Below are positions 20,401 through 23,457 of a stretch of DNA of 64,000 nt, in pieces. Source of the stretch: Escherichia coli (GTDB lineage Bacteria > Pseudomonadota > Gammaproteobacteria > Enterobacterales > Enterobacteriaceae); NCBI RefSeq assembly GCF_003334255.1, contig NZ_QOWU01000005.1; one strand, given 5' to 3'. The stretch's first letter is position 1. Each line of letters begins with the position of its first letter. The notes beneath the pieces were generated by a model. It was given only the letters and a program-made list of their open reading frames with translations, was not told the origin of the DNA and did not search any database. Both the position numbers and the translations under genes were made by a program.

Positions 20401-21491
20401 TGAGAATATCATTAGAAGAGAATTCAGTAGTTTTTATTCTATATCAATTTCATATTGGCGGTGTCGAAAGTGCACTAATAAATCTGCTTGAGAATATTAA
20501 AAAGAAGAGAGTATATTTGATCTTTGCAATGAATAAGATCAACAATGAACTCCTAAAAAAAATTCCTCATAACGTCAAAATAATTGGACTAGGAATAAAT
20601 AATAAAAATATATGTCATTTAATTGGTTATACACGTAGATTAAGCAAACGATATGATTTTAGTAGAACACACATTGTTAATTTTTCTGATACCCTATCAA
20701 CTCTAATAATTCAATATTCTTTGAATGCAAAATTAAAGACATCGTGGGTTCATTGCAATCCATTAACTTTGATAAACTCTCGTTCATTTCAGTTATATAA
20801 GTATTTATTAGTTAGAAATGATAAAATAGTTTGTTTGTGTGAATCACAGAAAAATCTCTTAATAAAGGTGATGCCCAAAGCGGAAAAAAAAGTCACCATT
20901 ATATATAATTGTGTTGATGCTGATATCCTTTCAAAAGGAGCTCAAGAAAAAGTTGACGTTGATTATAAATATATAATAAAAGTTGCAAGATTTGATGAAA
21001 GAACAAAAGATTTCATTACTCTTATAGATGCATATTGTAAACTACCTAAAGAAACACAAGATACGTATAAACTTGTATTATTAGGTGATGGACCTGATCT
21101 CGAAAATGTTAGAAATTATACAAGAAAAAAAAACAACATGCAAAACATATTTTTTCCGGGTAAAGATGTCAATCCTTTTAAATGGATTAAACATTCGCAG
21201 TTCTTGGTGCACTCCTCAACATCAGAGGGCTTTTCTCTTGTTCTGTTGGAGGCCATGTTATTAGGTAAAGTTGTGATTGCATCTGATTGTAATTGTGGTC
21301 CTTCTGATATACTGGATAATGGGAATGCAGGATTCCTATTCAATGTTGGTGATGTTGATAGCTTAACCTGTATTATGCAAAATTTATTAGTTAATCAAGA
21401 CATCATCAATATATATACCAATCGCTCTCTTGTTAGAGGCGTTGAATTACAGTTGAAAGCAAATAGGCAGGTTAAGGAGTATTTTTTGTGA
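20397..21491 (+). CDS. Glycosyltransferase, family GT4-like
   Basis: 364-aa ORF with SEGFSLVLLEAMLLGKVVIASDCNCGPSDIL motif. Confidence 0.8.
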   Translation: MMRISLEENSVVFILYQFHIGGVESALINLLENIKKKRVYLIFAMNKINNELLKKIPHNVKIIGLGINNKNICHLIGYTRRLSKRYDFSRTHIVNFSDTLSTLIIQYSLNAKLKTSWVHCNPLTLINSRSFQLYKYLLVRNDKIVCLCESQKNLLIKVMPKAEKKVTIIYNCVDADILSKGAQEKVDVDYKYIIKVARFDERTKDFITLIDAYCKLPKETQDTYKLVLLGDGPDLENVRNYTRKKNNMQNIFFPGKDVNPFKWIKHSQFLVHSSTSEGFSLVLLEAMLLGKVVIASDCNCGPSDILDNGNAGFLFNVGDVDSLTCIMQNLLVNQDIINIYTNRSLVRGVELQLKANRQVKEYFL

Positions 21492-22447
21492 GTAGTGTAT
21501 CTGTATGCATTGTGACTTTTAATCGTAAAAATGACCTGTTGAGATGTCTAGATAATGTTCTTAAACAGTCACACGTTGTCAGTAATATCCTTATATATGA
21601 TAATGCATCTACTGATGGGACCACTCGGTTTCTGCTTAGTAAATATTGCGCTATATTATCTCCATCAAATATTCCTCAAAAGATTGCAACCCTAAATGAC
21701 ATAAATATCTGGCTTGTTACAGCGACAGAGAACTCTGGAGGTGCTGGCGGGTTTCATTATTCTGTAAAATTATCTCGTGAAATATTCGATACTGATTATT
21801 ATTGGTTAATGGATGACGATGGTTACCCTTCTAAAGATTGTTTAAATATTCTTATGCAATATGCAGAGACGCATAATTCTGATTATGTTATGCCTGTTAG
21901 TATAGATATTGATAATAATGAACAGCTATCTTGGCCAACACGAAAAAAAAACCATGCAAAAACTGAATGTTATAAGGAATTATATGAGTCGTGGGGAGAT
22001 GTTATGGATTATGTTACACCTTTTAATGGTTCTCTCTTAAGTAAAAAATGTATTGATAGTGTTGGGTATGTGAATAAAGATTTTTTTATTTGGGGGGATG
22101 AGTATGAACATTACTGGAGATGCAAAAAAGCAGGAATTCATCCTGTAACAATTATGAATGCAAAATTCTATCACCCGTCACAAAAGTTACCTCTTCAGCC
22201 ATGTTTTTTTGGATTGATTAAATTACCCTATGTCGATTCTCCATTACGTATGGTATGCCTAGTTCGAAATTATACATATATTTATAAAAAATATGACTCA
22301 AAATTAAAAATAATTCTCAAGCTTATATCTTATAGTTGGTTTTTCTTAATAACAAGAAAGCTTGATGTTAAAGGTTTTGTCTTATACTTAAAAAGTGTTC
22401 TTGATGGATTAAGAAATGATTTTACAAGACATAGAGATTTTTTATAA
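21488..22447 (+). CDS. Glycosyltransferase, family GT2 (candidate galactofuranosyl- or rhamnosyltransferase-like)
   Basis: 319-aa ORF: VCIVTFNRKNDLLRCLDNVLKQS...NSGGAGGF...WLMDDD; paralogue of the next gene. Confidence 0.7.
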   Translation: MSSVSVCIVTFNRKNDLLRCLDNVLKQSHVVSNILIYDNASTDGTTRFLLSKYCAILSPSNIPQKIATLNDINIWLVTATENSGGAGGFHYSVKLSREIFDTDYYWLMDDDGYPSKDCLNILMQYAETHNSDYVMPVSIDIDNNEQLSWPTRKKNHAKTECYKELYESWGDVMDYVTPFNGSLLSKKCIDSVGYVNKDFFIWGDEYEHYWRCKKAGIHPVTIMNAKFYHPSQKLPLQPCFFGLIKLPYVDSPLRMVCLVRNYTYIYKKYDSKLKIILKLISYSWFFLITRKLDVKGFVLYLKSVLDGLRNDFTRHRDFL

Positions 22448-22554
22448 TACAGGTTGATACATTTCATAAAAACATAATGATAATGGATAATCAATTTGCA
22501 TCTTAATTATTTTTACTACCTTCCCTGCTCGATAAATATGTTTATAGGGTTAAT

Positions 22555-23457
22555 ATGACTGTTATTGCTATAGTTGTAACATTTAATCGCTGTGCGCTTT
22601 TGAAAAAAGTTTTGCATTCGTTGCTTTCTCAATCAATTGCATTAAATAAAATAATAATCATTGATAATGATAGTAATGATGATACAGCTAAAGTCGTGCA
22701 TGATTTTTCTGAAGTGGATGATATTTTTTATTATTATAACACAGGAGATAATCTGGGAGGGGCTGGAGGGTTTTATCAGGGGTTTAAAATCGCAGAGCAG
22801 TTTTATTATGACTATCTTTGGTTAATGGATGATGACCTTCTACCTGAGCCTGATTGCCTAGAGAAATTAATCCAAGATAGGCCAGAAGGAATTGTTCAGC
22901 CGGTAAGATACGATCTTGATGGTGCTTGTGCTGAAATATCACCTGTTGAGTATAATCTTCAAAAAATATTTTGCAGGAATCCTAAAACCAAAACAGTAAA
23001 AGAAGTGATTTCAACAGTTATTTCTGATAATTGTCGGGAAATCGATATTGCAGGTGTTCCTTTTGAAGGTCCTTTAATTTCAAAGTCGGTAGTTAATAAA
23101 GTGGGGTATCCAAATCCTGATTTTTTTATTTTTAATGATGATCTTGATTATTCGTTAAGGACGAGAAGTAAAGGTTTCTCTATAAAGTGTATAGTCGACG
23201 CCAGGGCTACAAGGCTTTTAAAAAATAATCAAAAAAATGATTTGAAAAGCTGGAAAGGATATTTCATGTTGAGAAATCATTATTATATCCTACGAAACTA
23301 TGGTGAAAATAAGCTCGTTAAGAATCGAGTCTATCTCATCATGTTTTATTATTTTTTGAAGTCAGTTTTTTCTTTTGATTATAAGTTCGCAAAAGTGGTT
23401 ATTTTTTCTTTTAAAGATTCATTTTCGCTTAAAAATAGCAAAAGATTTCGACCATAG
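22555..23457 (+). CDS. Glycosyltransferase, family GT2 (paralogue of upstream gene)
   Basis: 300-aa ORF: IAIVVTFNRCALLKKVLHSLLSQS...NLGGAGGF...WLMDDD; shares motif order with the 21488..22447 product. Confidence 0.7.
   Translation: MTVIAIVVTFNRCALLKKVLHSLLSQSIALNKIIIIDNDSNDDTAKVVHDFSEVDDIFYYYNTGDNLGGAGGFYQGFKIAEQFYYDYLWLMDDDLLPEPDCLEKLIQDRPEGIVQPVRYDLDGACAEISPVEYNLQKIFCRNPKTKTVKEVISTVISDNCREIDIAGVPFEGPLISKSVVNKVGYPNPDFFIFNDDLDYSLRTRSKGFSIKCIVDARATRLLKNNQKNDLKSWKGYFMLRNHYYILRNYGENKLVKNRVYLIMFYYFLKSVFSFDYKFAKVVIFSFKDSFSLKNSKRFRP

What the first reader, a model, noticed from the sequence alone, without database searches (positions are those of the whole stretch)
21488..23457. Tandem paralogous GT2 glycosyltransferase genes at the 3' end of the O-antigen cluster
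The products of 21488..22447 and 22555..23457 share the same motif order (VTFNR...L..QS, N..GGAGGF, WLMDDD..P..DCL, GY.N.DFFI, YK) at roughly 30% identity, indicating an old duplication with divergence. A 107-bp AT-rich spacer separates them, unlike the overlapping upstream genes. Paired GT2 enzymes of this kind next to glf are candidates for galactofuranosyl- or rhamnosyl-type transferases with different linkage specificity.
Basis: seen in the sequence. Interest (0 to 1): 0.3.

Follow-up and report, generated by a model that had tools for sequence, protein, structure and literature searches.

The report
Two known galactofuranose transferase genes, wfdJ-wfdK
The two neighbouring genes are wfdJ and wfdK, already-named glycosyltransferase genes at the end of the E. 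coli O167 / Shigella boydii type 3 O-antigen cluster; they most likely each add one galactofuranose sugar to the O-antigen repeat, which makes this an ordinary feature.

Summary
Two intact ORFs lie at 21488-22447 (319 aa) and 22555-23457 (300 aa), separated by a 107-bp spacer with 26% GC. They are the last two genes before gnd in an E. coli O167-family O-antigen cluster. The products share 32% identity over 236 aa (E 8e-29). A profile comparison extends the homology to nearly full length. Neither product is detectably similar to the third GT2 in the cluster, so the relationship is specific.

Both genes are already named: WfdJ and WfdK (UniProt B5L3V5/B5L3V6_SHIBO). Both best match the GlfT1 galactofuranosyltransferase model, though below its cut-off. 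Both keep the DXD and DD catalytic motifs. The WfdK model is closest in fold to GlfT2.

The duplication is ancient, not local. Each protein has 48-66% identical orthologues in other genera. A tree splits A-type from B-type with 50/50 bootstraps. The A-then-B order beside glf recurs in 32 of 82 loci from Proteobacteria and Actinobacteria.

A WfdK orthologue is the only GlfT-like enzyme in the O124/O164 cluster, whose repeat has a single Galf-β1,3-GalNAc. The rhamnosyl reading is excluded because the cluster has no rml genes. The genes are not next to glf, which lies 5.4 kb upstream. Which enzyme makes which linkage is unresolved. Low interest.

The parts
21488..22447 (+). wfdJ ('A-type' GlfT1-like GT2, 319 aa), a predicted UDP-Galf:acceptor beta-galactofuranosyltransferase
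   Evidence: ORF found. Its 90% cluster carries the UniProt name WfdJ, B5L3V5_SHIBO. Pfam gives PF00535 at 3.5e-18. The top NCBIfam hit is GlfT1 NF050113 at 134.8 bits, full length but below the cut-off of 330. The family keeps DDD109-111, D204-E205 and H229. The AF2 model has a GT-A fold with pLDDT 87.5, and GlfT2 gives the highest TM-score (0.64) among the 50 listed matches.
22448..22554 (.). 107-bp AT-rich intergenic spacer between wfdJ and wfdK
   Evidence: GC is 26%. Promoter-like sites number 7 against 6.1±2.5 in shuffles, so they do not exceed chance, and there is no terminator-like site. The homologous spacer is 56 bp in L005 and 25 bp in Psychromonas L003.
22555..23457 (+). wfdK ('B-type' GlfT-like GT2, 300 aa), a predicted UDP-Galf:acceptor beta-galactofuranosyltransferase
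   Evidence: ORF found. Its 90% cluster carries the UniProt name WfdK, B5L3V6_SHIBO. Pfam gives PF00535 at 7e-21. The top NCBIfam hit is GlfT1 at 79.5 bits. It gives sequence hits to solved GlfT2 structures 9dtp and 4fix. The AF2 model has pLDDT 92.6, and the top 7 PDB fold hits are all GlfT2, with TM 0.69-0.79 and E down to 5e-17. Invariant DDD92-94, D195-D196 and R220.
15017..16105 (+). glf, UDP-galactopyranose mutase, which supplies the UDP-Galf donor
   Evidence: RefSeq annotation. Homologues of glf lie beside A-type and B-type genes in 69 of 82 related loci.
20397..21491 (+). GT4 glycosyltransferase gene that overlaps wfdJ by 4 bp and is a conserved upstream partner of close wfdJ orthologues
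   Evidence: A GT4b-like gene directly precedes the A-type gene in Treponema, Limosilactobacillus, Psychrobacter Ps6 and Chitinophaga loci.
13759..20400 (+). The rest of the O167-family cluster: wzx 13759-15024, glf, GT4 16138-17340, ATP-grasp amidoligase 17337-18194, GT2 18194-19102, wzy 19150-20400
   Evidence: RefSeq annotation of genomes 100% identical over 13700-23500. NCBIfam scan.
23510..24916 (+). gnd, the 3' boundary of the O-antigen locus

Best explanation
The two genes are wfdJ and wfdK of the Wzx/Wzy-dependent E. coli O167 / Shigella boydii type 3 O-antigen cluster.

Both encode small (about 300 aa) inverting GT-A enzymes of family GT2. They belong to the same subgroup as the mycobacterial galactofuranosyltransferases GlfT1 and GlfT2.

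Proposed mechanism, which is inferred and was not assayed. Glf, encoded in the same cluster, converts UDP-galactopyranose to UDP-galactofuranose. On the cytoplasmic face of the inner membrane, each of WfdJ and WfdK transfers one beta-Galf from UDP-Galf to the growing undecaprenyl-diphosphate-linked repeat unit. The DDD motif would bind the nucleotide sugar, and the downstream D-D/E motif would act as the catalytic base.

My preferred order is that WfdK acts first and puts Galf on the initiating HexNAc. This is suggested by its last position before gnd and by its orthologue in O124/O164. WfdJ would then add the next Galf, and the upstream GT4 would continue the chain. This order is only weakly supported, at about 50%.

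The pair did not arise by duplication inside this cluster. A-type (WfdJ-like) and B-type (WfdK-like) enzymes are two ancient sister lineages that often travel together, in the order A then B, next to glf.
For: Identity of the locus and genes.

GT2 family and GT-A fold.

Galf-transferase affinity. GlfT1 (NF050113) is the top NCBIfam hit for both, with full-length alignment. WfdK aligns to solved GlfT2 sequences across the DD motif and the W..YF.LRN segment. The top 7 PDB fold matches for WfdK are all GlfT2. For WfdJ, GlfT2 gives the highest TM-score (0.64) among the 50 listed matches. The DXD and DD motifs, shown by mutagenesis to be essential in the GT2 Galf transferases PamC1/PamC2 and known from GlfT2 (PMC12269835), are invariant in both families.

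Linkage to glf. Of 82 loci holding an A-type gene, 69 hold glf. It lies within 300 bp in 53 and within 2.5 kb in 67.

Pair as a module. A is directly followed by B in 32 of 82 loci and never in the reverse order. In Psychromonas arctica the order is glf, A (65% id), B (55% id), and in the stretch examined (called genes) these are the only glycosyltransferases besides an initiating phosphotransferase. One metagenomic contig has the whole O167-like cluster at 48-79% amino-acid identity with all five GTs intact. One MAG encodes an apparent A-linker-B fusion protein.

Ancient split. In an NJ tree of 157 proteins, the A | B split has bootstrap 50/50, and every upstream gene of a pair falls in A and every downstream gene in B.

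WfdK acceptor. The 51%-identical orthologue is the only GlfT-like GT in the O124/O164 cluster. It overlaps glf and is the last gene before gnd. The O124 repeat has a single Galf, linked beta1-3 to GalNAc (PMC7685785).

Prior prediction. E. coli WfdJ is cited as a predicted Galf-beta1,3-GlcNAc transferase (PMC3989065, citing Lundborg 2010).
Against: There is no biochemical or genetic test of either enzyme.

Both score far below the curated GlfT1 cut-off (134.8 and 79.5 against 330), so neither is a GlfT1 orthologue and donor specificity is inferred.

The O167 repeat-unit structure (Linnerborg 1997) could not be read in the held library. That it contains two Galf residues is only my recollection.

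The E. coli O-antigen review states that the O167 cluster has one glycosyltransferase more than its structure needs. One of the five GTs, conceivably one of this pair, may therefore be surplus.

The two lines of evidence on acceptors conflict. The literature prediction gives Galf-1,3-GlcNAc to WfdJ, while the O124/O164 correlation gives Galf-1,3-HexNAc to the WfdK type.

WfdK-type proteins have an invariant Arg where GlfT2 and WfdJ-type proteins have the metal-binding His.
Confidence: 0.72

Rival explanations
1. Only one of the two is the working Galf transferase. The other is the 'extra' glycosyltransferase of the O167 cluster, and is either redundant, inactive in this context, or uses a different donor such as UDP-Glc, UDP-Gal or UDP-GlcNAc.
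For: The review PMC7685785 says the O167 cluster has one extra GT with no obvious explanation. B-type enzymes work alone with glf in three other E. coli clusters. A-type enzymes work alone with glf in Pasteurellaceae and Spirochaetes. One enzyme can therefore suffice for one Galf.
Against: Both ORFs are intact, with invariant catalytic residues. Both are kept, at 65-66% identity, in a diverged syntenic cluster and as a pair in 32 loci. In the Psychromonas stretch examined, A and B are the only non-initiating GTs. Three other GTs in the cluster are equally good candidates for the surplus enzyme.
Confidence: 0.18
2. The pair arose by a tandem duplication within this O-antigen cluster, followed by divergence.
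For: The two genes are adjacent, on the same strand, of the same length class, and have the same low GC (31.6% and 32.2%).
Against: Each gene is 48-66% identical to orthologues in other genera but only 32% identical to its neighbour. The A | B split has 50/50 bootstrap support and includes actinobacterial pairs in the same order.
Confidence: 0.04
3. They are rhamnosyltransferases of the WbbL/RfbF type.
For: There are weak hits to TIGR01556 'rhamnosyltransferase', at 45 and 36.8 bits. Some database homologues are named 'dTDP-rhamnosyl transferase'.
Against: The scores are far below the cut-off of 200.55 and below the GlfT1 scores. The cluster has no rmlBDAC genes. Relatives sit beside glf, not rml.
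Confidence: 0.02

Closest known systems
WfdJ and WfdK of Shigella boydii type 3 / E. coli O167 (UniProt B5L3V5_SHIBO, B5L3V6_SHIBO)
   Same: These are the same genes. They fall in the same 90%-identity clusters as the named entries. The cluster is 100% identical in DNA to RefSeq genomes annotated with O167-family wzx and wzy.
   Different: Nothing differs in sequence. The named proteins have only predicted functions, and I found no experimental characterisation.
Mycobacterium tuberculosis GlfT1 (Rv3782; NCBIfam NF050113)
   Same: It is about 300 aa, consists of the GT-A domain only, and is a GT2 enzyme. It is the top-scoring curated family for both proteins over their full length. From general knowledge, it acts early on a lipid-diphosphate-linked acceptor.
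   Different: The scores of 134.8 and 79.5 are far below the equivalog cut-off of 330, so these are not orthologues. From general knowledge, GlfT1 is one bifunctional enzyme that adds two Galf residues, whereas here two separate enzymes are present.
GlfT2 (M. tuberculosis 4fix/4fiy; Nocardia brasiliensis 9dtp/9nj0/9nj1) and the related galactan synthases PamC1/PamC2 and STM0724
   Same: They share the catalytic-domain fold, the DXD motif and the DD motif. They use UDP-Galf as donor and are encoded near glf.
   Different: Those enzymes are about 600-650 aa, carry extra N- and C-terminal domains, and are processive polymerases that make homogalactans. WfdJ and WfdK are half that size and sit in a Wzy-dependent heteropolymer cluster, where each is expected to add a single residue. 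WfdK has Arg in place of the GlfT2 metal-binding His.
The GlfT-like GT2 that is the last gene of the E. coli O124/O164 (S. dysenteriae 3) cluster (P0163)
   Same: It is 51% identical to WfdK, is B-type, is the last gene before gnd, and shares its cluster with glf.
   Different: It occurs alone, with no A-type partner, and it overlaps glf directly. The O124 repeat has one Galf.
GT111 Galf transferases (WbbM N-terminal domain, PamA)
   Same: They are predicted to have the same donor sugar and the same role in O-antigen synthesis.
   Different: They have a different fold and family. Pfam finds only GT2 families in WfdJ and WfdK.

Membership tests
GT2 inverting GT-A glycosyltransferases | Significant match to Pfam Glycos_transf_2 (PF00535) | tested here: met
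   WfdJ 3.5e-18 and WfdK 7.1e-21.
GT2 inverting GT-A glycosyltransferases | GT-A Rossmann-like fold | tested here: met
   AF2 models have pLDDT 87.5 and 92.6. All top PDB matches are GT-A enzymes.
GT2 UDP-galactofuranosyltransferases (GlfT1/GlfT2/PamC type) | DXD nucleotide-sugar/metal motif | tested here: met
   WLMDDD is present, with D109-D111 invariant in 22 A-type sequences and D92-D94 invariant in 25 B-type sequences.
GT2 UDP-galactofuranosyltransferases (GlfT1/GlfT2/PamC type) | Downstream DD catalytic motif (GlfT2 D371-D372; PamC D342-D343) | tested here: met
   In WfdK, D195-D196 are invariant and align to the GlfT2 DD. In WfdJ, D204 is invariant and is followed by E205; the family pattern is D[ED].
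GT2 UDP-galactofuranosyltransferases (GlfT1/GlfT2/PamC type) | Metal-binding His after the DD motif (GlfT2 His396; residue role from general knowledge) | tested here: inconclusive
   WfdJ-type proteins have invariant H229. WfdK-type proteins have invariant R220 at the aligned position.
GT2 UDP-galactofuranosyltransferases (GlfT1/GlfT2/PamC type) | Closest solved fold is GlfT2 | tested here: met
   For WfdK, ranks 1-7 are GlfT2 with TM 0.69-0.79. For WfdJ the result is weaker: GlfT2 gives the highest TM-score (0.64) among the 50 listed matches but ranks 45 by E-value.
GT2 UDP-galactofuranosyltransferases (GlfT1/GlfT2/PamC type) | Encoded with a UDP-galactopyranose mutase (glf) | tested here: met
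   glf is in the same cluster. It is present in 69 of 82 related loci, within 300 bp in 53, and in all three E. coli B-type loci.
GT2 UDP-galactofuranosyltransferases (GlfT1/GlfT2/PamC type) | Transfers Galf from UDP-Galf in vitro or in vivo | not testable with these tools
   This needs enzyme assays or deletion mutants.
GlfT1 orthologues (NCBIfam NF050113, equivalog) | Whole-protein score at or above the curated cut-off of 330 bits | tested here: not met
   WfdJ scores 134.8 and WfdK scores 79.5 bits. The Nocardioides, Pelistega and Haemophilus relatives tested also score below it, at 88-154 bits.
Rhamnosyltransferases (TIGR01556, WbbL/RfbF type) | Score at or above the cut-off of 200.55, and dTDP-rhamnose genes available | tested here: not met
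   Scores are 45 and 36.8 bits. The cluster has no rml genes.
GT111 Galf transferases (DUF4422; WbbM-N/PamA) | Match to the DUF4422/GT111 domain | tested here: not met
   The Pfam scan lists only GT2-type families for both proteins.

The most novel reading that the evidence does not exclude
A-type plus B-type GlfT-like enzymes form a conserved two-enzyme 'Galf-Galf' module. It is encoded in a fixed A-then-B order beside glf in Proteobacteria and Actinobacteria, and is fused into one polypeptide in one MAG. The module would split between two monofunctional proteins the two successive Galf additions that mycobacterial GlfT1 performs alone. The B-type partner would use an invariant Arg instead of the usual metal-binding His.
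Probability: 0.3. Interest if true: 0.35.

Novelty: already known. Interest (0 to 1): 0.15.

Why it matters
Its importance is small. The genes are already catalogued as wfdJ and wfdK, and serotyping and O-antigen genetics already take them into account. The useful residue is practical in three ways.

1. The pair gives a clean system for asking how small GT2 Galf transferases choose acceptor and linkage. Galf is absent from humans, so Galf transferases are of interest as drug and vaccine targets.
2. The O124/O164 correlation offers a testable assignment for the WfdK type.
3. The unexplained 'extra glycosyltransferase' of O167 noted in the E. coli O-antigen review could be settled by single-gene deletions in this cluster.

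Tried and rejected
1. I looked for the O167 / S. boydii type 3 repeat-unit structure in the held literature, using six of the eight full-text searches run, two look-ups by PubMed id and two supplement searches. The primary paper (Linnerborg 1997) and the Shigella review (Liu 2008) are not held. Only indirect statements were found: an L-alanine amide, one extra GT, an ambiguous polymerase linkage, and a predicted Galf-1,3-GlcNAc for WfdJ.

2. A sequence search of PDB with WfdJ gave only generic N-terminal GT2 matches, which was uninformative.

3. I tried rooting the tree with the cluster's third GT2 as outgroup. The saturated outgroup attached next to WfdJ, a long-branch artefact. I dropped it and analysed unrooted splits instead.

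4. My first ORF extraction over-extended start codons in high-GC Nocardioides. I redid it from the aligned regions.

5. I scanned the 107-bp spacer for a promoter or terminator and found nothing above chance. I do not read the spacer as a functional element or a recombination scar.

6. I tested whether Nocardioides, Pelistega or Haemophilus relatives are true GlfT1 equivalogs that could anchor the A-type. All were below the cut-off.

7. The rhamnosyltransferase reading and the in-situ duplication reading were rejected, as set out under the rival explanations.
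Full report
**What is there**

The window is E. coli chromosome. The stretch 13700-23500 is 100% identical to two RefSeq genomes and 99.6% identical to a third. In all three, RefSeq annotates 'O167 family' wzx and wzy.

The annotated order in window coordinates is as follows:

| Gene | Coordinates |
|---|---|
| galF | 11845-12750 |
| ISAs1 remnant | about 13199-13641 |
| wzx | 13759-15024 |
| glf | 15017-16105 |
| GT4 | 16138-17340 |
| ATP-grasp amidoligase | 17337-18194 |
| GT2 | 18194-19102 |
| wzy | 19150-20400 |
| GT4 | 20397-21491 |
| first target gene | 21488-22447 |
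| second target gene | 22555-23457 |
| gnd | 23510-24916 |
| ugd | follows gnd |
| NAD-dependent epimerase | 26397-27401, minus strand |
| wzzB | follows the epimerase |

The two target ORFs translate without interruption to 319 and 300 aa.

**Check of the observation**

BLASTP between the two products gives 32% identity over 236 aa, E 8e-29.

As a control for 'generic GT2' similarity, I compared each protein with the third GT2 of the same cluster. Nothing significant came out, with E 0.3 and 0.67.

A profile-profile comparison of the two families (22 and 25 sequences) gives 100% probability and E 2.5e-44 over 273 columns. This reaches into the C-terminal helical region. The relationship is therefore specific and nearly full length.

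The spacer is 107 bp at 26% GC. The genes of the cluster are 28-33% GC, against 50-51% for galF and gnd.

Most upstream junctions overlap by 1-8 bp, but glf/GT4 and GT2/wzy have gaps of 32 and 47 bp. The spacer is therefore the largest gap rather than a unique exception. Promoter-like matches in it do not exceed shuffled expectation, and there is no terminator-like site.

The statement 'next to glf' is wrong for this window, because glf is 5.4 kb upstream.

**Identity of the genes**

An exact-sequence look-up puts the two proteins in clusters whose members carry the UniProt names WfdJ (B5L3V5_SHIBO) and WfdK (B5L3V6_SHIBO). Other members are labelled E. coli O167:H9. These are therefore the published wfdJ and wfdK genes of the Shigella boydii type 3 / E. 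coli O167 O-antigen cluster.

A paper on Haemophilus parainfluenzae O antigens cites Lundborg et al. 2010 for a predicted Galf-(1,3)-beta-GlcNAc specificity of E. coli WfdJ (PMC3989065).

The E. coli O-antigen review records L-alanine as an amide substituent in O167. It also states that the O167 cluster has one glycosyltransferase more than expected, without explanation (PMC7685785).

**Family assignment**

- Pfam. Both proteins match PF00535.
- NCBIfam. The best NCBIfam model for both is the galactofuranosyltransferase GlfT1 equivalog NF050113, aligned over the full length. The scores, 134.8 and 79.5 bits, are far below the curated 330. They are GlfT1-like, not GlfT1 orthologues. The rhamnosyltransferase model scores lower, at 45 and 37 bits against a cut-off of 200. 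The cluster has no rml genes.
- Solved sequences. WfdK aligns to the sequences of solved GlfT2 structures (9dtp, 4fix) across the DD motif and the following W..YF.LRN segment.
- Predicted structures. AlphaFold models built on the family alignments are confident, with pLDDT 87.5 and 92.6.
- Fold matches. For WfdK, the seven best PDB fold matches are all GlfT2, with TM 0.69-0.79. For WfdJ, generic GT-A enzymes lead by E-value, and GlfT2 gives the highest TM-score (0.64) among the 50 listed matches.
- Catalytic motifs. The DXD and DD motifs were shown to be essential in the GT2 Galf transferases PamC1/PamC2 and are known from GlfT2 (PMC12269835). They are invariant in both families: DDD109-111 and D204-[E/D]205 in the WfdJ type, and DDD92-94 and D195-D196 in the WfdK type.
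- One difference. At the position of the GlfT2 metal-binding His, the WfdJ type has an invariant His (H229) and the WfdK type has an invariant Arg (R220).

**Evolution of the pair**

Each protein has many orthologues that are much closer than its neighbour is.

- WfdJ has more than 120 hits at 48-66% identity, in Psychromonas, Psychrobacter, Limosilactobacillus, Treponema and others.
- WfdK has 119 hits at 47-65% identity. The named ones are almost all Enterobacterales and Vibrionaceae.

I scanned one genome per species with a WfdJ-family alignment and obtained 80 loci. I then ran tblastn against them with the O167 proteins.

An NJ tree of the GlfT-like proteins from these loci, plus samples of both hit lists, has one clean split. 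All upstream genes of tandem pairs fall with WfdJ (104 tips). All downstream genes fall with WfdK. On 157 sequences this split appears in 50 of 50 bootstraps.

Among 82 loci, A is directly followed by B in 32 and the reverse order is never seen. These include Psychromonas, Pelistega, Pigmentiphaga, Endozoicomonas, Psychrobacter and about 25 Nocardioides and other Propionibacteriales loci. glf is present in 69 loci and lies within 300 bp in 53.

One caveat applies. The loci were selected through the A-type, so B-type singletons are not sampled by this scan.

The duplication is therefore ancient, and the arrangement has been inherited or transferred as a unit. It did not arise in the O167 cluster.

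Three further observations support functional coupling.

- In Psychromonas arctica the order is glf, A (65% id), B (55% id). In the stretch examined, no other glycosyltransferase is present except an initiating phosphotransferase.
- A metagenomic contig carries the whole O167-like cluster at 48-79% amino-acid identity with all five GTs intact.
- A Marmoricola MAG encodes a single 638-aa ORF made of an A-type domain, a proline-rich linker and a B-type domain.

**Clues to acceptors**

B-type enzymes occur alone in three other E. coli O-antigen clusters. In each they are the last gene before gnd, and glf is in the same cluster.

One of these is the O124/O164 cluster. The B-type protein is the only GlfT-like GT there. 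The repeat unit has a single Galf, linked beta1-3 to GalNAc (PMC7685785). By elimination, that orthologue makes Galf-beta1,3-GalNAc.

On the other side, Pasteurellaceae loci have glf followed by a single A-type gene. That gene is the '13G / WfdJ' protein of H. parainfluenzae strain 13. Its O unit contains Galf-(1,3)-beta-GlcNAc.

Both types therefore appear able to act on a HexNAc acceptor. The division of labour in O167 is not settled by these data.

Gene order gives a weak hint. The review notes that GT genes run in reverse order of function in 39% of clusters. That would have WfdK act first, then WfdJ, then the GT4 whose gene overlaps wfdJ. A homologue of that GT4 precedes the closest WfdJ orthologues in Treponema, Limosilactobacillus, Psychrobacter and Chitinophaga.

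**Mechanism proposed**

What is shown: family, fold, catalytic motifs, the glf association and the conserved pairing.

What is inferred: Glf supplies UDP-Galf, and WfdJ and WfdK each transfer one beta-Galf to the Und-PP-linked repeat unit on the cytoplasmic side, before Wzx flipping and Wzy polymerisation.

That the O167 repeat holds two Galf residues is my recollection of the 1997 structure paper. I could not check it here.

If the repeat had only one Galf, one of the pair would be the unexplained extra GT of this cluster. I give that rival about 0.18.

**Comparison with known systems, and verdict**

The genes are already known and named, but I found no experimental characterisation.

They work like GlfT1/GlfT2-type GT2 Galf transferases, but they fail the GlfT1 equivalog threshold. 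They also lack the extra domains of the processive GlfT2/PamC galactan synthases.

The finding is real and mostly correctly read, but it is ordinary. The one mildly new point is that A-type and B-type small Galf transferases form an old, widely distributed ordered module with glf. Interest 0.15.

Noticed in passing
L070:7965-9881 (Marmoricola MAG): A single 638-aa ORF consists of an A-type (WfdJ-like) domain, a proline-rich linker and a B-type (WfdK-like) domain. It is either a natural fusion of the two enzyme types or a MAG assembly error.
   Followed up: partly
L018:7983-9905 (Lachnospiraceae MAG): An A-type domain is fused to a second GT2 domain that resembles the O167 cluster's third GT2 (window 18194-19102).
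   Followed up: no
window 19150-22447; L006, L007, L009, L012, L014, L019: The closest WfdJ orthologues (45-64% id) in Treponema, Limosilactobacillus, Psychrobacter Ps6 and Chitinophaga are preceded by a homologue of the upstream GT4 (33-48% id). Wzy-like and GT2-like genes are often nearby. The wzy-GT4-wfdJ block looks like a module that is shared across phyla.
   Followed up: partly
window 22555-23457 (WfdK residue R220) and 21488-22447 (WfdJ residue H229): WfdK-type proteins have an invariant Arg at the position where WfdJ-type proteins have an invariant His and where GlfT2 has its metal-binding His. This may mean a different way of binding the nucleotide sugar.
   Followed up: partly
window 13759-23457 (whole cluster): The E. 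coli O-antigen review states that the O167 cluster has one glycosyltransferase more than its repeat unit needs. Five GT genes are present here (16138, 18194, 20397, 21488, 22555), and all five are conserved in a diverged syntenic contig (L005).
   Followed up: partly
window about 13199-13641: A frameshifted ISAs1-family transposase remnant lies between galF and wzx, according to the RefSeq annotation of identical genomes.
   Followed up: no
window 17337-18194 and 26397-27401 (minus strand): An ATP-grasp amidoligase sits inside the cluster, and an NAD-dependent epimerase sits between ugd and wzzB. These fit a galacturonic acid amidated with L-alanine, which the review reports for O167. I did not find a paper that assigns the amidoligase.
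   Followed up: no
L002 (NZ_CP062824.1): A genome titled E. coli O169:H41 carries the O167-family cluster at 99.6% identity. The serotype in the record title and the locus annotation disagree.
   Followed up: no
L024:2558-9796 (Pelistega europaea): Wzm/Wzt proteins score best against the mycobacterial 'galactan export' ABC transporter models, though below their cut-offs. They are followed by two GT2 genes, glf, an A-type gene and a B-type gene. This is an ABC-transporter-dependent context for the same enzyme pair.
   Followed up: partly
L089:1-10903 and L087/L088: Two further E. coli O-antigen clusters of serogroups I did not identify carry glf and a WfdK-type gene as the last gene before gnd. 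One has CMP-sugar and manB/manC genes. The other has rfbBA, vioA and a frameshifted 'O116 family' wzx.
   Followed up: partly
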